Shown: positions 6,155-50,506 of the stretch, one piece after another
How the letters are laid out: each line of letters opens with the position of its first letter
Numbering within the stretch: the stretch's first letter is position 1
Source: Rickettsiales bacterium
Lineage (GTDB): Bacteria; Pseudomonadota; Alphaproteobacteria; Rickettsiales; UBA998
Reading direction: 5' to 3'
Assembly (NCBI GenBank): GCA_024304995.1
Contig: JAMWZD010000001.1
Coordinates: forward strand, 129,472 to 193,471
Length of the DNA stretch: 64,000 nucleotides
Notes under the pieces: model-generated
The model's input: only the letters and a program-made list of their open reading frames with translations
The model's database searches: none
What the model was told of the DNA's origin: nothing
Made by a program: the position numbers and the translations under genes

Positions 6155-7408
6155 CTATAGTTTAAGTCCCAGACCGAGAATGAATTTCTGCGTGTCAGAA
6201 GCAAATGTGTCTGCGTGATAATCTGCGTAGCGTGCTTCAATGTAATATCGCTGCATAATGGGCATATGCCCTGTGACATCCCACTCAGTGCCAAAATTCT
6301 GATTAGTGTCTTCAGATGAGAAATCGTGATATTGCGTTTTCAGCTTTAATCCATTGAGCTGGGGAAGAATGTCTGATGAATGATGCTGATAGCTCACATC
6401 AATATAAGCATCTTCCAGACCAGTTGCAGGCGTATTGAGGAAAATATCTGCAAAGCCGTTAAATTTGTGCAAGGTGGCAAGCGGAGTGCTGAATGCAATT
6501 GCGCCATTGTCACTGCCCAGCACTTCATATCCCAGCGTTGCGGTGATGCCATATGCACTGATGGCAGGGGCAAGATGATAATAATCCGCATCATAGCTCA
6601 CTGCATTATTGCCATAATCACTTTGGTGGGCATATTCAGCGTGATATTTGAAGGAGACATCACTATTAATCGGCACTGCTCCTTTCAGGCTTGCGCCGTA
6701 ACTTTGCGAAGATAGTGCAGGTGCATCATCCTGAAAATCCAGCAAGTAAGCATATGCCGTAATATTACCTATAGTATAAGACGAATTATTGATGTTTAAA
6801 ATGTGGCTGTCTGAATCAAAATCACCTATTGGTGAGTCTGTGCCAAAAATGCGGTTCACATTGTTGAGATAGCCATACATAATTTTTGTGTCTGGCAAAG
6901 ACGTATTATATATCGTCGCGGCATCAAAAGTCTGGTCATTCTGCCGCCAGCCAACAGAACCAATAAAACGCTGTTCATCCAGATTAATGCGCTCACGACC
7001 AATTCGAAGTCGGGTCTCTGGCAGACCGTTATATTCCAGAAATAACTGATTAATGGCAGTATCTTCCACATCAGCCACTACAGGGTGCGAGGTGCGTCCA
7101 TTTAGCGTATCATTATAATTGTCACTGCCAATCTGCGCGATATTTTCAAATTCTGCCAGCGCGGAAAAATCATACAGATTTCCTGTTTTATATCCCAGAC
7201 GGGTTCTGAGCGTGGATGCATGAGCATCTTCAGGAAGATTGTCCTGCGATACATATTCATAACGATAACGCATATCCAGCCATGCATCACCTTCCTTAAA
7301 AGCGTTGACAAGTGCGTCTGATGCAAATGCAGGAAGCGCAGTGGCAGACATCGCAGTTGAACACACAAATATAAAAGACAGTTTTTTATGCAAATTTTTC
7401 ATATTCAC
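6155..7408 (-). CDS. Outer-membrane beta-barrel protein (porin-like, possibly alginate-export family)
   Basis: Signal peptide 'MSATALPAFA/SD', alternating aromatic/Gly barrel pattern, and an early 'WLDMRYRYEYVSQD...LRTRLGYKTG' stretch. The family assignment is from memory only. Confidence 0.5.
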   Translation of the reverse strand: MNMKNLHKKLSFIFVCSTAMSATALPAFASDALVNAFKEGDAWLDMRYRYEYVSQDNLPEDAHASTLRTRLGYKTGNLYDFSALAEFENIAQIGSDNYNDTLNGRTSHPVVADVEDTAINQLFLEYNGLPETRLRIGRERINLDEQRFIGSVGWRQNDQTFDAATIYNTSLPDTKIMYGYLNNVNRIFGTDSPIGDFDSDSHILNINNSSYTIGNITAYAYLLDFQDDAPALSSQSYGASLKGAVPINSDVSFKYHAEYAHQSDYGNNAVSYDADYYHLAPAISAYGITATLGYEVLGSDNGAIAFSTPLATLHKFNGFADIFLNTPATGLEDAYIDVSYQHHSSDILPQLNGLKLKTQYHDFSSEDTNQNFGTEWDVTGHMPIMQRYYIEARYADYHADTFASDTQKFILGLGLKL

Positions 7409-7631: not shown

Positions 7632-10142
7632 GTGATGAAAACTGTGAATATATCTAAAAAAATACCGCTCTTTATTGTGTTTGCAACTTTTGTCAGTTGC
7701 CTGATCATCGGGATACTTGCCGAGAATATTTCTCGCAGCACGTTAGTAAGTTCACTTGAAAATAAACTTGAAGTATTGCTCGCATCGCGTAATTCTGAAC
7801 TCCAACGCTACCTTCATTCTATACAAGAAGATTTAACTGTTACTGCAGAAAATGCGCAAACAAAAACTGCTATTACAGAATTTTCTCAAGGATGGGATGC
7901 ACTTGGCATTGCGCAAAAACAATACCTTCAGGATAGCTATATTCATGATAATCCTTATCCATTAGGAGAAAAACACAAGCTGGATTACGCTACTGGCAAT
8001 ACGCTCTATAACGCAGTACACGCCAAACACCACCTTTGGTTTCGTAACCTTTTAGAATCGCGCGGATATTATGATATTTTCTTATTTGATCTAAATGGAA
8101 ACCTGATCTACAGCGTGTTCAAAGAGCTGGATTATGCGACCAACATGCTCAGCGGTGAATATAAAAATACGGATATTGCCAATGCATATCGTGCAGCAGC
8201 TGCACCTGAGGTAAATAAAAGCAAGCAATTCTTTTTTGATTTCAAGCCGTATGCGCCAAGTCATGGTGCGCCTGCCAGTTTCATCTCTCAACCTGTTTTT
8301 GACAATGGCAAAAAAATCGGCGTACTAATTTTCCAAATGCCAATAGACCGCATTAATAAAATCATGTCTGCAAGTGATGGTTTGGGTAAAACAGGCGAGA
8401 CCTATATTCTCGGAGAAGATTATTTTATGCGTAATGATTCACGCTTGAGTGAAGACAGCACTATTTTGAAGCAACAGGTAAAAACAAACACTGCAAAGGC
8501 AGCATTACAAGGAAAATCAGGCATTGAAATCGTTACGGATTATCGCAATGAAAAAGTATTTTCTGCCTATATGCCATTTAACTTCATGTCTGCCAACTGG
8601 GCCATTTTAGCTGAACAGGATTATGCAGAAGTAATGGCCCCTGTAGATAAACTACAAACGAAAATTATCATGATTGGCACTATCGTTATCCTGTTTATGA
8701 TAGCGCTGGGTTATATGGCATCTCGCACCATTACAATTCCTTTGCAAAATATAAGCGATGTCTTAAGAAGATTAGCTGAAGGCAAAATGAATACTTCAAT
8801 AGATCATACAGAACGTGATGATGAAATTGGTAGTCTGGCACAAGCCGCACTTTTATTTAAAAAATATATTGAAGATAATCAAAAACTCGAAGCTCAGGAA
8901 CGAGAACGTGCCGCGGCTATGCAGAAGATAGAAGAAGAAAAACGTCTTGCTGCATTGCAGGCAGAAAAAGAAAAATTGGCACGTGACAGAGAAGAGGAAA
9001 ATGCTGAACGTCAACGTCTTGAAGAGCAGCGCAAAGAACGTCTGGAAGCGGAAGAACGTGCAAAAAATGAGCGTGCTCAAGCCATTGCACAACAAGAAAA
9101 ACGCATAGCTGAAGAAATTTCAAGCATTATTGAAGCATGTAAAAACGGGGATTACAGCAAACGTTTAGATATAGAAGGAAAACAAGGATTATTGCTAACT
9201 CTTAGCCAGAATATGAACGAAATCGGTGAAGTGACGCAAAATGGACTATCTATGATCAAATCAGCTATTGCATCTCTTGCAGAAGGCGATTTGCGTTACC
9301 GCATGAATGATAATTGCAAAGGTATCTTTAATGACATTAAAACTGATTTCAACAAAACAGTTGAACATCTGGAAGATACTGTAAATCATATTAAACAATC
9401 AGCAGATTCTGTGAACACTGCCGCGCAGGAAATTGCACAAGGTAGCGCAGATCTGGCGTATCGCACAGAAACACAGGCCTCTACATTAGCTGAAACTTCC
9501 ACCGCCATGCAATCTTTAACTAATACAGTAAAAGAAAATGCAGGCACTGCCAAAAACGCGCAGGAACTTTCAAAAGAATCTGCGAAGGCAGCTGCACATG
9601 GCGGTCAGGTGATTTCTGAGGTTATGAAAACTATGCATAATATTAGTGATGCTTCACAAAAAGTAGTGAATATCATTAGTGTAATTGATGAAATTGCCTT
9701 TCAAACCAATTTACTGGCACTCAATGCGGCCGTGGAAGCAGCACGTGCGGGTGAGGCTGGAAAAGGCTTTGCCGTGGTGGCAAGTGAAGTACGCTCTCTT
9801 GCTGGGCGTTCGGCATCAGCATCTAAAGAAATTAAAACACTCATCAATAACAGCGTAGAGCGTGTGGATTCTGGTGTAGAACTAGTCAATCAGTCTGGTG
9901 AAACATTAGAAAATATTATTGAGTCTGCCAACAAAGTGTTGGAGTTGATTCAGGTCATTTCTATCTCCAGCAATAATCAGGCACATGATATTGATGAGAT
10001 GAGCGGTGCGATTTACAATATTGATGAAACAACGCAGCAAAATGCAGCATTAGTGGAAGAAAACACTGCGACTGCGCAATCCATGTCTGATCAGGGCGCA
10101 AGCCTTGTGGCATTGATGAAGTTTTTCACCACAAATAATTAA
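7632..10142 (+). CDS. Methyl-accepting chemotaxis protein with double-Cache-like periplasmic sensor, HAMP, E/K-rich helix and signalling domain
   Basis: Cache-like motifs ('[20 protein letters not shown]', '[19 protein letters not shown]', '[12 protein letters not shown]'), two TM segments, and the MCP tip '[41 protein letters not shown]'. Confidence 0.9.
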
Positions 10143-44976: not shown

Positions 44977-46048
44977 CGTCCTTCTCGATCTCATCCATAT
45001 CATCAGAAAGTTCAGCCGCACGCGAGCCTTGCATGGATGGGCGCACACCTCTGTCCCAGTCATCATAAGCCTGCACAATTTTTCCAGCCAGTTCATGACG
45101 GACAACATCTGTATCCGAAAATGCCACAACCGAAATGCCGTCAATATGGCTGATTTTACGCACCGAATCCCTCAATCCTGATTTTACGTCTTTGGGCAAA
45201 TCAATCTGTGACATATCACCTGTAATCACCATGCGAGAATTCTCGCCAAGTCGCGTTAAAAACATTTTCATCTGCGTGGATGTGGTGTTTTGCGCTTCAT
45301 CCAGAATGATAAATGCGTTGGAGAGCGTCCGTCCGCGCATAAACGCAAGGGGCGCGACTTCAATTTCCACCTTTTCCATCATCTGATTGACCTTCTCCGC
45401 TGGCAGCATGTCAAATAACGCATCATAGAGCGGGCGCAGAAACGGGTCTATCTTCTCTTTCATATCACCTGGCAAAAAGCCCAGCTTTTCCCCCGCTTCC
45501 ACTGCAGGGCGGGAGAGAATGATCCGTTCCACACGGTGATTCAGGAACATGTAAACTGCCATTGCCACAGCAATATAGGTCTTTCCTGTTCCCGCAGGAC
45601 CAAGTGCAAATGTCAGATCATGGTCATAAAGCGCGCGCATATAATTTGCCTGCATATGCGAATATGGCGCGACTGTTTTTTTCGCTGTTTTAATGTAAAC
45701 ATCGCTCTGAATAGCACGTTTTTCAGCACGTTTCATCTGCTTACGTGGCTCATGCGCATCTTCCACTTCAACAGGGGGAGCCACCCGAACTGCTGCTTCC
45801 ACGTCCTTCGCGGTAATATCCTTTCCGTTTTTAAGCGTTCTGTATAAATCCATCAATATGGCTTCCACCAGCACCACATCCCGCTGCGCTCCTGTCACAG
45901 ACAGCATATTGCCGCGCGGGATTGCTTCCAGATTCAGCAGTTTCTCTAGTGTTTTGAGGTGCGCATCATCATCACCATATAAAGCAGGTAAGACGCTATT
46001 ATCCTCAAAGAAAATATTAGTGGAAAAATGATGCGGTGTTTTAGGCAT
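44966..46048 (-). CDS. phoH: PhoH-like ATPase (YbeZ)
   Basis: Walker A 'GPAGTGKTY', 'IILDEAQN', 'ITGDMSQIDLP'. Confidence 0.9.
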   Translation of the reverse strand: MPKTPHHFSTNIFFEDNSVLPALYGDDDAHLKTLEKLLNLEAIPRGNMLSVTGAQRDVVLVEAILMDLYRTLKNGKDITAKDVEAAVRVAPPVEVEDAHEPRKQMKRAEKRAIQSDVYIKTAKKTVAPYSHMQANYMRALYDHDLTFALGPAGTGKTYIAVAMAVYMFLNHRVERIILSRPAVEAGEKLGFLPGDMKEKIDPFLRPLYDALFDMLPAEKVNQMMEKVEIEVAPLAFMRGRTLSNAFIILDEAQNTTSTQMKMFLTRLGENSRMVITGDMSQIDLPKDVKSGLRDSVRKISHIDGISVVAFSDTDVVRHELAGKIVQAYDDWDRGVRPSMQGSRAAELSDDMDEIEKDDEQ

Positions 46049-46230
46049 AAAAAATCATTGCTATTATTAAACTATAATGAGGAAATATTATGCAACAATC
46101 AATAGAATTACGATTTTATTTCACGCCCAAACCATCGCTTTTGCATAAATAAAATAAATCTGGTGGTATTTCTGCCAAGTTTTCACTTGCGCTTATCCCT
46201 TGAAGGCGATAAAAGAACATCTCTTTTACT

Positions 46231-46307
46231 GGACCCGTAGCTCAACTGGATAGAGTACCTGACTACGAATCAGGCGGTTAGAGGTTCGAATCCTCTCGGG
46301 TCCGCCA
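46231..46307 (+). tRNA. tRNA-Arg (anticodon ACG)
   Basis: Hand-folded cloverleaf: acceptor ggacccg/cgggtcc, D stem gctc/gagt, anticodon stem cctga/tcagg with loop cuACGaa, T arm agagg-ttcgaat-cctct, encoded CCA. Confidence 0.9.
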
Positions 46308-47162
46308 TTTTAGTTGGCTATGATTGCATTTCTTAATTTTCTCTTCAGCACGTTCTGCAAATGCTACTCTATTATAAAATTTCTTATCTGATGGTATGCC
46401 TTCAGGAAAAACTATCATTAATGATGTTTCATATGTTGACTTTAAATACTGATATGCAACTGTGAGTTTTGAGTCGCAGATATTACCTTTGATAATAAAA
46501 ATTTGATTCGCTAAAGCGTTTGTAATTCTTGTGGCTGTTAATCCAAGATAATATGCATATTTCTCGTCATCTAAAAACCTTTTCTCATCTAAAATTCGTT
46601 TGTATAAATCAACAAGATTAAATTTTATGCCAAAGTAATCCGCAACAGACATATTTAACTTCTCAAATCTATATATTAAAAACATATATGACAGATAACT
46701 AGAGTGAAAAACATCATGTTCCAGTTTCTCATTTGTAAGCTGATGCTTTGAAATATTCTTGATAATATCAATAGCTATTTCAATTCTTTGCTCTTTATTG
46801 CTAATATTGATTTTCTGTTTTTTATTCAAATATTCCACGTAAGGCGATACATAATAATTATATTTCCATATATAATATTCGCCATCAGATTCAGGTATAA
46901 CGGAAAGTGCATTTTCCATAGCGTTTCTATGCCAACCATTCATAACCTGATAAATAAAATCTTGGTCATCACCAATTCTAGCAAGCCATACCCCTTGCAA
47001 TACTGCTAGATAATTACTTATGATATATTCATTTTTAGTATCATATGCAGAAGCTTTATCTTCCCACTCATTAACACCTGCACGGTACATAGAATACATA
47101 ACATAGGATAGAACAAGTAATAGGGTAATTACCGCGCGTAATACTATTTTTTTACTACTCAT
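46278..47162 (-). CDS. AT-rich orphan protein with N-terminal TM helix (unknown function)
   Basis: The ATG at 47162 overlaps the last lepA codons, with a GTG alternative at 47165. The ORF runs through visibly AT-rich DNA and only terminates 30 nt inside the convergent tRNA-Arg gene. No motif recognised. Confidence 0.45.
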
Positions 47163-48405
47163 CACTCATCTTAAGCGCCGCAATAAACGCGCTTTGTGGA
47201 ATATCCACATTGCCGATAGAACGCATTTTTTTCTTTCCCTTCTTCTGTTTTTCCAGCAGCTTTTTCTTGCGGGAAATATCCCCGCCGTAACACTTCGCGG
47301 TTACGTCTTTTCGCATGGCGGAGATGGTTTCTCGTGCGATGATTTTTCCACCAATGGCCGCCTGCACAGGAATTTTGAACAGATGCTGCGGAATGAGGTC
47401 TTTCAGGCGTTTGCACATGGCGCGCCCGCGATAATCTGCCTGAGAGCGATGCACGATAAGTGAGAGCGCATCCACAGGTTCGGCATTGACCAGAATGGAC
47501 AAACGCACCAGATCAGACGCATCATAGCCGTCCATCGTATAATCAAAACTCGCATAGCCGCGCGTGCAGCTTTTCAGACGGTCATAAAAATCAAACACCA
47601 CTTCGTTGAGCGGCAAACGATACACCGCCATTGCCCGACCAGATACGTAAGTCAGATCCACCTGAACACCGCGTTTTTCAGTGCATAAAGATAGCACATT
47701 GCCAAGATATTCGTCAGGAACCATAATCGTGCCTTTAATCCACGGTTCGCGCATTTCAGTGATTTTGGTCACATCTGGCATGTCTGCAGGGTTGTGCAAT
47801 TCTTTAATTGTGCCGTCTGTCATCGTCATTTCATAGACCACGCTTGGCGCAGTGGTGATGAGGTCTACATCATATTCACGTTCCAGCCGCTCCTGAATAA
47901 TCTCTAAATGCAGCAACCCGAGGAAGCCACAACGAAAGCCCATGCCAAGCGCAGAGGAGCTTTCCACTTCATAATGAAAACTTGCATCATTAAGATGCAG
48001 CTTGGCAATACTTTGCTTCAAATGTTCATATTCGCCATTGTCCGTGGGGTAAAGACCACAAAACACCACAGGCTGACTTGGTTTAAAGCCTGGCAACGCC
48101 TTGTCGGCTGGCTTGGCATCATCCGTAATAGTGTCGCCCACATTTGTGTCTGCCACATGCTTGATGCCTGTAGTGATATATCCCACCTCACCTGCTCCAA
48201 GTGATGGCACACGCATTTTTGCTGGCGTAAACACACCCACATCATCCACCACATAGGCAGATTTATTGCTCATCATGCGGATTTTTTGCCCCTTCTTCAC
48301 CTCGCCTGAAAATACGCGAATAAGAATAATCACGCCGAGATACGTGTCGTACCAGCTATCAATCAGAAGGGCTTTTAATGGGAGTTCGTTTGGGTTTTGG
48401 GTCAT
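47155..48405 (-). CDS. lepA: Elongation factor 4 (LepA), C-terminal fragment: domains II-V plus the LepA C-terminal domain
   Basis: It begins '[20 protein letters not shown]' and contains '[23 protein letters not shown]' and '[23 protein letters not shown]', collinear with E. coli LepA from about residue 190 to the end. Confidence 0.9.
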
Positions 48406-48689
48406 GAGAATAGTTTTAAAATGTGAGTTCGGAAGAATAGCGCGATGATGGCGAGTAATATAGAAATAACTCCACCTTTAATCCAGCTTTTTAGCTCTGC
48501 AATCTTTGTATTTTGTTTTTCAATTTGTGTGTCTTGTGCTGTAATACGATTTTCAAATTTCAATAATGCATTTTCAAGTTCTAATTTGGAGATGAATTGC
48601 TGTTTGGAACGCTGCAGAATTTTTTCATGGGCAACAATTTGCTCTATCGGTACTCCCGCATTGTTCAACAATTCTATATTTTCATCCAT
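48402..48689 (-). CDS. Coiled-coil protein with C-terminal TM anchor (DUF1640-like architecture) inside the lepA-splitting cassette
   Basis: An N-terminal '[19 protein letters not shown]' helix, a heptad-like '[34 protein letters not shown]' stretch, and the hydrophobic tail '[15 protein letters not shown]'. Its TGA overlaps the lepA-C ATG. Confidence 0.55.
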
Positions 48690-48720
48690 GCTTATCTTTT
48701 AGTCAGAAAAGCTAATGAAA

Positions 48721-48966
48721 TCAATGTTGTTGTTTGTGCTGCGCTTTAAGCGTTTTTACCAGATGTGGCTTTTGCGTAATCAAAGCAAAAGCGCGGGCTT
48801 TCTTTTCTTCCAGCCCAGCTTTCCCTAAACGATATATCCAATATTCCTCATCAAAATTCTGCATATCAGCAATATATGCTTTACTCATAGATACAAGAAC
48901 CTCTGCTACGTCTTCAGTAACACCAGTCTGCATCAATTGGGCAATATCTCGTTCATGTGGCTGCAT
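48721..48966 (-). CDS. Small helical protein (unknown function), first gene of the lepA-splitting cassette
   Basis: 81-aa ORF on the same strand as lepA. It contains 'LMQTGVTEDVAEVLVS', a motif related to the start of the next ORF. Repeats and a palindrome lie just upstream. Confidence 0.45.
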   Translation of the reverse strand: MQPHERDIAQLMQTGVTEDVAEVLVSMSKAYIADMQNFDEEYWIYRLGKAGLEEKKARAFALITQKPHLVKTLKAQHKQQH

Positions 48967-49029
48967 AACATTTATTATATGTTATTCATAACATAAACAG
49001 CAAGTTACAATTTTGGTATTTATACCAAT

Positions 49030-49599
49030 TTACAACACCCGAGGCGGCGGCAAGCGTGTTACCACGGCTTCCAATACATCTACAATACCAATGCCTGTTT
49101 TCGCAGAAATCAGGATAGCGTCAGATGCGTCCAGCCCTATCACTTCTTCAATTTGTTGTTTAATGCGTTCTGGCTCTGCGGCGGGCAGGTCAATCTTGTT
49201 TAGTACGGGAACGATCTCGTGGTCAGCCTCAATCGCCTGATACACATTCGCCAGCGTCTGCGCTTCCACCCCTTGTGATGCATCCACCACCAGCAAAGAT
49301 CCCTCACATGCTGCCAGACAGCGGCTCACCTCATAGGCAAAATCCACATGCCCTGGTGTGTCCATCAGGTTCAGAATATAGGTTTCACCATCTTTTGCCT
49401 TGTAATTTAGTCGTACGGTTTGTGATTTAATGGTAATGCCACGCTCGCGCTCAATATCCATACTATCCAGCAGCTGTTCATGCATATCCCTGTCTGATAC
49501 GGCTTCACAATGCTGAATCAGCCTGTCTGCCAGAGTGGATTTGCCGTGGTCAATATGGGCTACGATGGAAAAATTGCGAATTTTGGATAAATCTGTCAT
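49030..49599 (-). CDS. lepA: Elongation factor 4 (LepA), N-terminal GTPase-domain fragment
   Basis: '[15 protein letters not shown]', 'DTPGHVDF', 'NKIDL', 'SAKTG'. It ends '...RLPPPRVL*' where the intact protein continues into domain II. Confidence 0.9.
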
Positions 49600-49641
49600 G
49601 TTGCTCTATGTAATGCATTTACGTAAAAGCGCAAGAAATTC

Positions 49642-49965
49642 GTGCATGTTAACAGGTTTAATGTTATTATTAACAAGTACATTCTTATCACAGCAAATAA
49701 GCTAATGAATTTTTTTGAAAATCTTATCGTTTCACTGGTACTTAAATTTTATCATCTTTTTGATGATGAAAAATGCGTATTATATTATGATGAGAATGAT
49801 AATCTGTACCAAGTTGAATATTGTCCAAATCTTCTACACCGATATTTTGTCATAAGGCAAGATCGTATGATACGGGAGGATGGCTATTGTAAAACAAAAA
49901 AAGTAATGGATCTTTCTTATCAGGAAAGAGCGTTATTTTTAAATTCTTCAAATGATATTCAATAG
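49642..49965 (+). CDS. AT-rich orphan ORF (doubtful)
   Basis: An ORF in AT-rich DNA between lepA and cinA. No motif recognised, and the start may be the internal 'MNFFENL'. Confidence 0.3.
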   Translation: MHVNRFNVIINKYILITANKLMNFFENLIVSLVLKFYHLFDDEKCVLYYDENDNLYQVEYCPNLLHRYFVIRQDRMIREDGYCKTKKVMDLSYQERALFLNSSNDIQ

Positions 49966-49987
49966 ATAAATAACTTCAGAGCAATAA

Positions 49988-50506
49988 TTATAATTGCTCT
50001 ATTTTTTTGACTGCATTTTCAATTAATCGCACCGCCTGACGCACTGCGTGCAGCCGCACCTGATTGCGGAAACCATCAAAATGATAGGTTGTCGTCTCCA
50101 CCGCATTTCCCAATGCACAGCCAAAACACACCATGCCGACAGGTTTTTCCTTTGTTCCACCTTCTGGCCCTGCAATTCCTGTAATGGATACGCTGATGAC
50201 ATAATCAAATGCATCAAATTCCTGCAAAGCATGTGCGCCACCTACTGCCATTTCACCTGCCACTTCTTCACTCACAGCACCGTGCGCTTCCAGCGTCTGC
50301 GGGTCAACAGCTGCATAGCGTATTTTTGCCGCATTATCATATGTGATCATATTGCTATGTATCACTGCAGAAGAACCTGACACAGATGTGAGAAGCGCTG
50401 AAAGCAACCCACCCGTGCAGGATTCCACCGTGGTCACCCCAATTTTACGCGCCGCACAGATTTTGATTAGTTTTTCAATACGTTGCAGTAATAATTCTTC
50501 AAACAT
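49988..50506 (-). CDS. pncC: CinA C-terminal domain protein / nicotinamide-nucleotide amidohydrolase PncC
   Basis: 'TTVESCTGGLLSALLTSVSGSS', 'GAVSEEVAGEMAVGG', 'SITGIAGPEGG'. Confidence 0.85.
   Translation of the reverse strand: MFEELLLQRIEKLIKICAARKIGVTTVESCTGGLLSALLTSVSGSSAVIHSNMITYDNAAKIRYAAVDPQTLEAHGAVSEEVAGEMAVGGAHALQEFDAFDYVISVSITGIAGPEGGTKEKPVGMVCFGCALGNAVETTTYHFDGFRNQVRLHAVRQAVRLIENAVKKIEQL

What the first reader, a model, noticed from the sequence alone, without database searches (positions are those of the whole stretch)
47155..49599. lepA (EF4) split exactly at the G-domain/domain II junction, with both halves intact and the 3' half translationally coupled to the inserted cassette
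Seen in sequence: the ORF at 49599..49030 (-) carries all GTPase motifs and ends '...RLPPPRVL*'. The ORF at 48405..47155 (-) starts '[20 protein letters not shown]' and runs to the conserved LepA C-terminus. In E. coli LepA these stretches are contiguous ('PPPEGDPEGPLQALIIDSW'). They are separated here by about 0.62 kb of clearly AT-richer DNA holding two same-strand ORFs. Neither lepA half has a frameshift or internal stop. The stop of the 95-aa cassette ORF overlaps the ATG of the 3' half (ATGA, 48402-48405), and no Shine-Dalgarno precedes that ATG. The AT-rich 295-aa ORF in turn overlaps the lepA stop.

Inference: this is either a very recent insertion or a stably split EF4 made as two polypeptides (a free G domain plus domains II-CTD) from one five-gene unit. 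I know of no described split lepA.
Basis: partly seen in the sequence, partly recalled or inferred. Interest (0 to 1): 0.8.

Follow-up and report, generated by a model that had tools for sequence, protein, structure and literature searches.

The report
Naturally split translation factor EF4 (LepA)
In this uncultured alphaproteobacterium and dozens of relatives, the normally single-chain ribosomal GTPase EF4/LepA is encoded as two separate, strongly conserved genes cut between the GTPase domain and domain II, which suggests that a translational GTPase can work as two polypeptides.

Summary
The interpretation "stably split EF4" is right and "recent insertion" is wrong.

- **Cut site:** the N half (189 aa) aligns to E. 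coli EF4 residues 2-184 and the C half (416 aa) to residues 188-594.
- **Distribution:** about 37 N-half and 37 C-half sequence clusters have the same cut, many on contigs of 0.3-1.9 Mb.
- **Arrangement:** where the halves are adjacent, the DNA between them differs by lineage. In some genomes the halves are unlinked, for example 10 kb apart on opposite strands.
- **Selection:** both halves are under strong purifying selection (dN/dS 0.02-0.11, synonymous sites saturated).
- **Phylogeny:** on a bootstrapped LepA tree the split state changes at least 10 times.
- **Sequence signature:** split forms share a domain-II hairpin change to an aromatic residue (36/37 split, 16/150 unsplit; F[S/A] 26/37 vs 1/150, and 0/70 in a fresh sample). 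This resembles EF-G's RVYSG. They also share a short hydrophobic tail (PRVL*) encoded by different codons.
- **Window cassette:** the two-ORF cassette is a fast-evolving orphan pair found in only three lineages.
- **Rejoining:** no intron, intein or homing endonuclease was found.
- **Literature:** I found no prior report of a split lepA.

Function as a two-subunit factor is inferred, not shown.

The parts
49030..49599 (-). lepA-N: free G domain of EF4 (189 aa). G motifs [18 protein letters not shown] and SAK are intact.
   Evidence: Pfam GTP_EFTU E=1.9e-54. Aligns to E. coli EF4 residues 2-184. dN/dS 0.02-0.09 against other split lineages.
49030..49041 (-). Junction tail R187-V188-L189 plus stop (CGG GTG TTG TAA). 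It replaces the canonical linker K-G-D.
   Evidence: The tail R[VI][LIMVA]* is seen in most of the ~37 N-half clusters. It is encoded by different codons in different lineages, and the downstream DNA is unrelated.
48406..49029 (.). AT-rich spacer between the halves (624 bp, 35% GC).
   Evidence: No Rfam match at E<=10. No flanking direct or inverted repeats. No other copy in the window.
48721..48966 (-). orf81: orphan small protein, predicted 5-helix bundle.
   Evidence: Homologues exist only in L098 (42% identity) and L100 (31%) among 5.8e9 proteins. 20 invariant residues. AF2 best-model pLDDT 85, other four models 61-70. No PDB fold match, best E 2.3.
48402..48689 (-). orf95: orphan small protein, one long helix (coiled coil) ending in a C-terminal transmembrane segment.
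   Evidence: No homologue in 1.84e9 representatives. AF2 gives a single helix over residues 15-93. Only sub-threshold XhlA/hemolysin-like hits. ORFs of the same architecture sit at this position in L098 and L100.
48402..48405 (-). ATGA stop/start overlap between orf95 and lepA-C.
   Evidence: Read directly. The same overlap is present in L098 (6001-6004) but not in L100.
47155..48405 (-). lepA-C: EF4 domains II, III, V and the LepA C-terminal domain (416 aa).
   Evidence: Pfam GTP_EFTU_D2, EFG_III, EFG_C, LepA_C. Aligns to E. coli EF4 residues 188-594. dN/dS 0.04-0.10.
48382..48405 (-). Junction head MTQNPNEL preceding the first domain-II strand [12 protein letters not shown].
   Evidence: Heads of type M-[TS]-x-x-P-N-x-L-PLKALL recur in split forms from several tree positions.
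48307..48312 (-). Domain-II hairpin signature F32-S33 (IRVFSGE), equivalent to E. coli EF4 K213-N214.
   Evidence: Aromatic residue in 36/37 split vs 16/150 unsplit forms. F[SA] in 26/37 vs 1/150, and 0/70 in an independent sample. E. coli EF-G has RVYSG at what I take, by motif pattern, to be the equivalent hairpin.
46278..47165 (-). Flanking AT-rich 295-aa orphan ORF. It is not part of the conserved split system.
   Evidence: No Pfam, PHROG or PADLOC hit. Absent downstream of lepA-C in L098 and L100. Its 3' end overlaps tRNA-Arg.

Best explanation
This is a stable, naturally split lepA. EF4 is made as two polypeptides: a free G domain (LepA-N, 189 aa) and domains II-III-V-CTD (LepA-C, 416 aa). 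The cut lies in the surface linker between domains I and II.

Inferred mechanism:
- The two proteins reassemble non-covalently into an EF4-like factor. Domains I and II normally behave as one rigid block.
- Each half keeps its own ribosomal anchor. In this family the G domain and domain V contact the 50S subunit (SRL, L7/L12 stalk, L11 region), and domains II and III contact the 30S subunit (16S h5/h15, S12). The ribosome itself can therefore help bring the halves together.
- Loss of the covalent link is compensated by two changes. One is a short hydrophobic C-terminal tail on LepA-N (R-V-L). The other is a two-residue change in the first hairpin of domain II ([K/V/I][E/D] to F[S/A]), which matches the RVYSG motif of EF-G.

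The DNA between the halves is a lineage-specific landing pad. In the window and its two closest relatives it holds a fast-evolving orphan pair: a small helical protein plus a tail-anchored helix. Translation of that pair is coupled to LepA-C here. These two genes are not what defines the split.

Shown: the cut, its spread, selection on both halves, the signature residues.
Inferred: separate translation, reassembly, and the role of the tail and hairpin.
For: **Position of the cut.** It maps to E. coli EF4 residues 184/188.

**Spread.**
- 37 N-half-only and 37 C-half-only sequences (35 protein clusters plus GTDB loci L004 and L005).
- By matching contig lengths, 12 lineages have both halves on one contig. 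I confirmed this at the DNA level for the window, L098, L100, L084, L095, L097 and L086/L091.

**Unlinked halves.**
- On JGI contig Ga0590836_000189 the halves lie about 10 kb apart on opposite strands.
- The C half follows znuA in L089 or parC in L093, with no N half within 5-6 kb.

**Selection.** pN is 0.03-0.21 with pS 0.62-0.82 for both halves.

**Tail.** It is conserved as protein but uses different codons, and the flanking DNA is unrelated.

**Hairpin signature.** It is specific to split forms and absent from 70 new unsplit loci. In L004 the flanking residues stay native: VRVFSGTLTRG against VRVKEGTLTRG in its 94%-identical relatives.

**Tail-hairpin covariation.** Five lineages pair R[VI][LIMA]* with F[SA]. 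Clade B (four N/C pairs), P0183 and L005/P0216 pair Y-x with other tails.

**Hairpin-linker covariation in unsplit LepAs.** Odds ratio about 13.

**No rejoining device.**
- The Rfam E-value scan is empty.
- The tail is 3 aa and the head 8 aa, too short for split inteins.
- No endonuclease domains were found.

**Structural background.** Review PMC5207388.
Against: - There are no expression, proteomic or biochemical data. Reassembly is an inference.
- I could not show that these genomes lack a second, intact lepA. I can only say that none is in the window, and that none of the full-length hits listed has a longest-contig length equal to those of the 0.6-1.9 Mb contigs carrying split halves.
- I could not compute 3D distances, so the hairpin may act on 16S rRNA rather than on the tail.
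- lepA is dispensable in E. coli under standard conditions (abstracts). Selection on each half could in principle reflect separate roles.
Confidence: 0.8

Rival explanations
1. Sub- or neo-functionalisation. After fission the two products no longer work together. LepA-C acts alone as a GTPase-less ribosome-binding factor, and LepA-N acts as a free small GTPase with another partner.
For: The halves can be unlinked and on opposite strands, so they need separate promoters. The hairpin change towards an aromatic residue plus a small residue could strengthen independent binding of domain II to 16S rRNA. lepA is non-essential in E. coli (abstracts).
Against: - Wherever I could see enough sequence, both halves were retained together (12 contig pairs).
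- Both halves evolve at similar, very low dN/dS.
- All GTPase motifs, and the domain III/V elements that normally couple to the G domain, stay conserved.
- The tail and hairpin co-vary.
Confidence: 0.12
2. The halves are rejoined after transcription or translation. Candidate routes are a degenerate group I/II intron, trans-splicing, a split intein, or translational bypass. Under this view the cell still makes one-chain EF4.
For: The cut is clean and in frame with respect to the protein alignment. The insert is AT-rich foreign-looking DNA.
Against: - No Rfam family matches at E<=10 in 48406-49029.
- The spacer sequence and length differ completely between lineages, from 624 to 2504 bp with protein-coding cargo.
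- In some genomes the halves are 10 kb apart on opposite strands, or at distant loci.
- The tail and head are 3 and 8 residues with no intein blocks.
- Every C half I inspected has its own ATG. In one, the gene caller had instead extended the ORF to an upstream GTG.
Confidence: 0.03
3. A recent disruptive insertion or a decaying pseudogene, or an assembly artefact.
For: The AT-rich insert sits inside a conserved gene. NCBI gave no protein name to most of these halves.
Against: - Saturated synonymous divergence with 95-96% protein identity to the nearest relative that carries the same split.
- There are no frameshifts or internal stops.
- The split is present in dozens of independent assemblies from ENA, JGI, NCBI and Logan.
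- A separate re-assembly is identical.
Confidence: 0.02
4. Origin question, which is separate from function. The split state spread laterally. A short junction segment (tail, stop, cargo, start, head, and the first ~25 codons of domain II with F[SA]) was copied between lineages by homologous recombination, using the highly conserved lepA flanks. The alternatives are many independent fissions with convergent compensation, or one ancient fission followed by several re-fusions.
For: - Split forms need at least 10 state changes on every one of 200 bootstrap trees. P0185 and L004 are nested in unsplit clades at 100% support.
- Yet these forms share the tail type, the head type, KALL and F[SA], all within about 35 codons of the junction.
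- The junction-proximal 30 aa of P0153 differ by 2-3 residues from the window's clade but by 6 from its own closest relative.
- For re-fusion: P0137_F, the sister of the window's clade, keeps FS and has an odd linker. P0158_F and P0233_F have long atypical linkers.
Against: - Only about 14 variable positions lie in the proximal segment, so the mosaic signal is weak.
- In L004 the residues directly flanking FS are native, which fits point substitution.
- Clade B has different tails, one of which matches its unsplit relative's linker: PKS* against PKSPEQDPLKALL. That fits an independent local fission.
- DNA-level traces are erased by saturation.
Confidence: 0.35

Closest known systems
Canonical EF4 / LepA (e.g. 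E. coli, PDB 3CB4; ribosome complexes 3JCD/3JCE, 4W2E)
   Same: All domains and motifs are present in the normal order. The halves align end-to-end to residues 2-184 and 188-594.
   Different: It is encoded and presumably made as two polypeptides. The KGD linker is replaced by a stop after R-V-L and by a new N-terminus. The domain-II hairpin reads FS where E. coli has KN and most unsplit relatives have [K/V/I][E/D].
'Genes in pieces': phage Aeh1 nrdA split by the mobE homing endonuclease, where new tails are essential for assembly (Crona et al. 2011, PMC3045599)
   Same: A conserved single-chain enzyme is split into two intact ORFs by inserted DNA. New short sequences appear at the cut ends and are conserved.
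   Different: No homing endonuclease is found in any of the gaps examined. This is a cellular, chromosomal gene split across many bacterial lineages, and the halves can become unlinked. The role of the tails is untested here.
Split-intein genes (cyanobacterial dnaE; 'fractured genes', PMC2677866)
   Same: The two halves of a conserved protein are encoded apart, sometimes at distant loci.
   Different: There are no intein sequences at the junction (3-aa tail, 8-aa head). The products cannot be ligated by protein splicing.
Stable natural fissions of conserved machinery: cyanobacterial rpoC1/rpoC2, Nanoarchaeum split genes, T4 topoisomerase gp39/gp60 (from my own knowledge, not checked here)
   Same: Fission at a domain boundary, with both parts retained and functional as a complex.
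   Different: None of these involves the G domain/domain II core shared by all translational GTPases. The 2015 survey of trGTPases across life does not mention a split LepA.
EF-G domain II hairpin RVYSG
   Same: Split EF4 carries RVF[S/A]G or RVY.G at what I take to be the equivalent hairpin. E. coli EF-G has RVYSG at residues 337-341.
   Different: The equivalence rests on the motif pattern, not on a structural superposition. Unsplit EF4 has RV[K/V/I][E/D]G and EF-Tu has RVERG.

Membership tests
EF4/LepA translational GTPase | G domain with G1-G5 motifs | tested here: met
   Pfam GTP_EFTU E=1.9e-54. [18 protein letters not shown] and SAK are visible.
EF4/LepA translational GTPase | Domains II, III, V and the LepA-specific C-terminal domain | tested here: met
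   GTP_EFTU_D2, EFG_III, EFG_C, and LepA_C at E=7.6e-51. Aligns to 3CB4 residues 188-594.
EF4/LepA translational GTPase | One polypeptide of about 600 aa | tested here: not met
   A stop follows residue 189. The separate ATG lies 624 bp downstream.
EF4/LepA translational GTPase | Ribosome-dependent GTPase / back-translocase activity | not testable with these tools
   Needs biochemistry.
Genes-in-pieces made by a homing endonuclease (Aeh1 nrdA/mobE type) | Host gene split into two intact ORFs with new junction tails | tested here: met
Genes-in-pieces made by a homing endonuclease (Aeh1 nrdA/mobE type) | Homing endonuclease gene between the halves | tested here: not met
   No HNH, GIY-YIG or LAGLIDADG hit, or any other nuclease hit, in orf81, orf95 or the cargo of the other gaps.
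Group I / group II intron | Ribozyme core detectable by covariance models | tested here: not met
   Rfam scan at E<=10 over 46000-50200 finds nothing in the gap. The spacers are unrelated between lineages.
Intein / split intein | Intein blocks flanking the cut (about 100 aa N-intein, about 35 aa C-intein) | tested here: not met
   Only 3 extra residues follow the G domain and 8 precede domain II.
Programmed translational bypass (T4 gene 60 type) | Short (~50 nt) non-coding gap with take-off and landing codons on one mRNA | tested here: not met
   The gap is 624 nt with two ORFs. In other genomes the halves are on opposite strands.
Pseudogene | Relaxed selection or disabling mutations | tested here: not met
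   dN/dS 0.02-0.11 with saturated dS. No frameshifts or internal stops.
Insertion sequence / MITE | Terminal inverted repeats, target-site duplication, multiple copies | tested here: not met
Toxin-antitoxin or defence module (for the orf81/orf95 cassette) | Match to a known toxin, antitoxin or defence family | tested here: not met
   No PADLOC, Pfam or PHROG hit above threshold. No PDB fold match. A different lineage (L094) does carry a DUF433/DUF5615 pair in its gap.

The most novel reading that the evidence does not exclude
The universally conserved G domain/domain II core of a translational GTPase can be supplied in trans. EF4 then works as a two-subunit factor that assembles on, or with the help of, the ribosome. 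A specific, portable two-residue change in domain II ([K/V/I][E/D] to F[S/A], EF-G-like), together with a hydrophobic C-terminal tail, is what makes the fission viable. This would explain why the same cut has arisen or spread at least ten times in Alphaproteobacteria.
Probability: 0.5. Interest if true: 0.85.

Novelty: new variant of a known kind. Interest (0 to 1): 0.78.

Why it matters
**For translation biology.** EF4/LepA is among the most conserved bacterial proteins. The G domain plus domain II is the invariant core of every translational GTPase.
- A natural, long-maintained cut between these two domains says the covalent link is dispensable.
- It offers a ready-made system for asking how GTPase activation on the sarcin-ricin loop is coupled to the rest of the factor.
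- The split-specific hairpin and tail residues are directly testable in E. coli by splitting lepA with and without K213F/N214S and the RVL tail.

**For genome annotation.** As far as I know, lepA is a standard single-copy phylogenomic marker (this is from my own knowledge and was not checked here).
- Split forms may be scored as missing, truncated or pseudogenes. Most of these halves carry no name in NCBI.
- That could bias completeness estimates and marker trees for these uncultured Alphaproteobacteria.

**For evolution.** The pattern of at least 10 state changes, with a shared junction signature, is a compact case for studying recurrent gene fission, possible re-fusion, and recombination-mediated spread of a gene architecture.

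Tried and rejected
- **Intron.** An Rfam E-value scan of 46000-50200 found only a tRNA and noise.
- **Mobile element.** No other copy of the cassette in the window by blastn or tblastn. No target-site duplication or terminal inverted repeats.
- **Expression signals.** The promoter/terminator scan found no terminator-like site in the gap on the coding strand. Promoter-like sites were at chance level.
- **Cassette function.**
  - Pfam, PHROG and PADLOC gave nothing above threshold.
  - A profile search of 5.8e9 proteins found only the three known orf81 members.
  - A full scan of 1.84e9 representatives with orf95 found only itself.
  - AF2 plus Foldseek against PDB gave no match.
- **Metagenome scan with P0189.** It was meant to recover more split loci and test the tail-hairpin pairing.
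- **N-half phylogeny.** It was meant to test lateral transfer, but the N half is too conserved to resolve, with all neighbours at 84-88% identity.
- **Mosaic test.** A sliding-window and nearest-neighbour test for a recombination tract was suggestive for P0153, P0185 and L004 but underpowered.
- **Shared element end.** The idea that a common mobile-element end encodes RVL* was rejected. The codons differ and the downstream DNA is unrelated.
- **Literature.** Apparent 'lepA' hits in a Wolbachia paper were the author name LePage.
Full report
**1. The observation**

- On the minus strand, ORF 49599..49030 encodes a 189-aa protein that matches Pfam GTP_EFTU over its whole length (E=1.9e-54) and ends ...RLPPPRVL*.
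- ORF 48405..47155 encodes 416 aa. It starts [20 protein letters not shown] and carries GTP_EFTU_D2, EFG_III, EFG_C and LepA_C.
- Between them lie 624 bp at 35% GC, against about 47-53% in the halves. This gap holds same-strand ORFs of 81 and 95 aa.
- The stop of the second ORF overlaps the C-half start as ATGA (48402-48405), and no Shine-Dalgarno-like sequence precedes it.
- Against solved E. coli EF4 (3CB4) the N half aligns to residues 2-184 and the C half to 188-594. The cut therefore falls in the few-residue linker between domains I and II.
- The window holds no other lepA.
- A Logan re-assembly of run SRR19707674 is 100% identical over 6.8 kb.

**2. It is not a local accident**

A search with the N half returned many proteins of 187-193 aa at 80-95% identity that stop right after the PPP motif. 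Several sit on contigs of 0.3-1.8 Mb. A search with the C half returned 35 proteins of 411-433 aa that begin just before PLKALL, again on long contigs.

I confirmed seven of these at the DNA level. The arrangement varies.

| Locus | Arrangement |
|---|---|
| Window, L098, L100 | Adjacent, with two small ORFs between the halves |
| L084 | Adjacent, 207-aa antisense membrane ORF between the halves |
| L095 | Adjacent, pilin-like plus amidoligase-like genes (2.5 kb) |
| L097 | Adjacent, methyltransferase-like ORF |
| L094 | Adjacent, DUF433/DUF5615 pair |
| JGI contig Ga0590836_000189 (L086/L091) | Unlinked: 10 kb apart on opposite strands |
| L089, L093 | C half follows znuA or parC, with no N half nearby |

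The nearest species representatives in GTDB, L001 (82%) and L002 (78%), have an ordinary 600-aa lepA.

**3. Both halves are functional genes**

Pairwise Nei-Gojobori estimates give pN 0.03-0.21 and pS 0.62-0.82 for both halves, so dN/dS is 0.02-0.11 wherever dS is computable. Even the window against its closest relative L098 is saturated at silent sites, while the proteins are 95-96% identical. This rules out a recent insertion and rules out pseudogenes.

The N-half tail R-[V/I]-[L/I/M/V/A]-stop is conserved as protein. It is encoded by CGG GTG TTG, AGA GTG GCT, CGC GTG CTG, CGA GTT ATT, CGC ATC CTG or AGA ATA ATG in different lineages, and the DNA after the stop is unrelated. The tail is therefore selected. 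It is not the footprint of a shared mobile-element end.

**4. No rejoining device**

- There is no Rfam match in the gap at E<=10.
- There are no flanking repeats.
- No endonuclease or intein domain was found.
- The spacers are unrelated between lineages.
- The halves are on opposite strands in some genomes.

Introns, inteins and bypassing are not tenable.

**5. The split is polyphyletic on the LepA tree**

I built a neighbour-joining tree of the C-half region. It has 187 sequences, an E. coli outgroup and 200 bootstraps.
- It needs at least 10 split/unsplit changes in every replicate (median 13).
- P0185 and L004 are nested in otherwise unsplit clades at 100% support.
- The window's clade (16 split forms plus one full-length) has 82% support.
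- For L097 and L095, the N half is closest to the same unsplit relatives as its C half. So the bulk of the gene is inherited within each lineage, and it is the junction state that recurs.

**6. A split-specific signature**

Because the state recurs, I looked for residues that track it. Positions 20-21 after LLIDSWYD form the turn of the first domain-II hairpin. They correspond to window C-half F32-S33 and to E. coli K213-N214.

| Feature | Split forms | Unsplit forms |
|---|---|---|
| Aromatic at position 20 | 36/37 | 16/150 |
| F[S/A] dipeptide | 26/37 | 1/150 |
| Acidic at position 21 | 4/37 | about 90% |

- In 70 further unsplit loci from a metagenome scan, F[S/A] was 0/70 and aromatic 6/70.
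- L004 reads VRVFSGTLTRG, where its 94%-identical unsplit relatives read VRVKEGTLTRG.
- The hairpin type pairs with the tail type. F[S/A] goes with R[VI][LIMA]* in five lineages. Y-x goes with other tails in clade B (four N/C pairs), P0183 and L005/P0216.
- Among 204 distinct unsplit LepAs, an aromatic hairpin goes with loss of the canonical KGD..PLKA linker, with an odds ratio of about 13. Hairpin and linker are therefore coupled even without a cut.
- E. coli EF-G has RVYSG and EF-Tu has RVERG at what I take, by motif pattern, to be the equivalent turn.

**7. How it most likely works**

According to review PMC5207388:
- Domains I and II behave as a rigid block.
- The G domain and domain V bind the 50S subunit (SRL, L7/L12 stalk, L11 region).
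- Domains II and III bind the 30S subunit (h5/h15, S12).

I infer that LepA-N and LepA-C reassemble non-covalently, helped by their separate ribosomal anchors. I also infer that the hydrophobic tail and the aromatic hairpin compensate for the lost linker. They would do this either at the I/II interface or by tightening the contact between domain II and 16S rRNA. None of this is shown experimentally.

**8. The window's cassette**

- orf81 has homologues only in L098 (42%) and L100 (31%) among 5.8e9 proteins, with 20 invariant residues. It is predicted as a 5-helix bundle and has no PDB match.
- orf95 has no homologue in 1.84e9 representatives. It is predicted as one long helix ending in a membrane segment.
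- Equivalent ORFs occupy the same positions in L098 and L100 but are barely alignable.
- Both evolve far faster than lepA (pN 0.33-0.55).
- The ATGA coupling is kept in L098 and lost in L100.

I regard the pair as lineage-specific cargo of the gap. It may be a small membrane-active module, but that is a guess. Another lineage, L094, carries a toxin-antitoxin-like pair in its gap. The 295-aa ORF downstream is absent from both relatives and overlaps tRNA-Arg.

**9. Origin**

Three scenarios remain open, and they may be mixed.
- **Independent fissions with convergent compensation.** The native flanks around FS in L004 fit this. So does the clade B tail PKS*, which matches its unsplit relative's linker PKSPEQD.
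- **Lateral spread of a short junction segment by recombination through the conserved lepA flanks.** The tail, head, KALL and F[SA] all lie within about 35 codons of the junction. The junction-proximal segment of P0153 is closer to the window's clade than to its own relative.
- **Re-fusions of once-split genes.** P0137 keeps FS and has an odd linker. P0158 and P0233 have long atypical linkers.

Canonical KGD linkers in the unsplit relatives of L004 and P0185 exclude a single ancient split as the whole story.

**10. Novelty**

Full-text searches for lepA/EF4 with 'split gene', 'gene fission' or 'two polypeptides' found nothing relevant. A survey of translational GTPases across life does not mention a split LepA.

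The closest analogue is the phage Aeh1 nrdA gene, which is split by mobE and whose new tails are needed for assembly (PMC3045599). Here there is no endonuclease, the gene is cellular, and the cut is in the core shared by all translational GTPases.

I class it as a new variant of a known kind (natural gene fission). Interest is high for translation biology and for genome annotation.

Noticed in passing
window 46231-46307 (+) and 46278-47165 (-): The gene for tRNA-Arg(ACG) overlaps the last ~10 codons of the AT-rich 295-aa orphan ORF on the other strand. The ORF is absent from the two closest relatives. This looks like a small islet next to a tRNA gene.
   Followed up: partly
window 49600-49990: The AT-rich (28-32% GC) region between cinA and lepA-N holds a 107-aa orphan ORF on the + strand. 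Relative L098 has a different 83-aa ORF there. This is a second variable spot flanking lepA.
   Followed up: partly
window 59499-63094: This AT-rich island (~35% GC) holds a 388-aa ORF and a convergent 830-aa ORF that contains a GNPPW (NPPW-type) N6-adenine methyltransferase motif. It is probably a restriction-modification island. A 148-aa ORF that looks to me like a phage-type lysozyme follows at 63135-63581.
   Followed up: no
window 7632-10142: An 836-aa ORF in a lower-GC stretch (35-42%) looks to me like a methyl-accepting chemotaxis protein. It is flanked by ORFs that look like outer-membrane proteins. No family search was run on any of them.
   Followed up: no
L094 562-1124: In another split lineage the gap between the lepA halves holds a DUF433 plus DUF5615 pair, which is toxin-antitoxin-like.
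   Followed up: partly
L082 about 6620-6700: In a genome with unlinked halves, a tRNA-like sequence (GGTTCCGTAGCTCAGCTGGATAGAG...) begins about 50 nt after the lepA-N stop.
   Followed up: no
proteins P0233 (619 aa), P0158 (607 aa), P0199 (625 aa), P0137 (602 aa): These full-length LepAs have long or atypical domain I/II linkers. P0233 reads PHPRHPEQSEGSRAAGDASRSAQHDGSPLKALL. P0137 also keeps the split-type FS hairpin. They are candidates for re-fusion of a once-split gene, or for in-frame linker insertions.
   Followed up: partly
protein P0130 (NCBI NET71451.1): A full-length LepA that nests within the window's alphaproteobacterial clade is labelled Sphaerospermopsis sp. SIO1G2, a cyanobacterial MAG. 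This is probably a contaminant contig in that bin.
   Followed up: no
L063, L068 (GTDB loci): In these two loci the lepA linker is intact but the G-domain motif lies outside the same ORF. I suspect upstream frameshifts from sequencing error rather than true splits. I counted them as unsplit.
   Followed up: no
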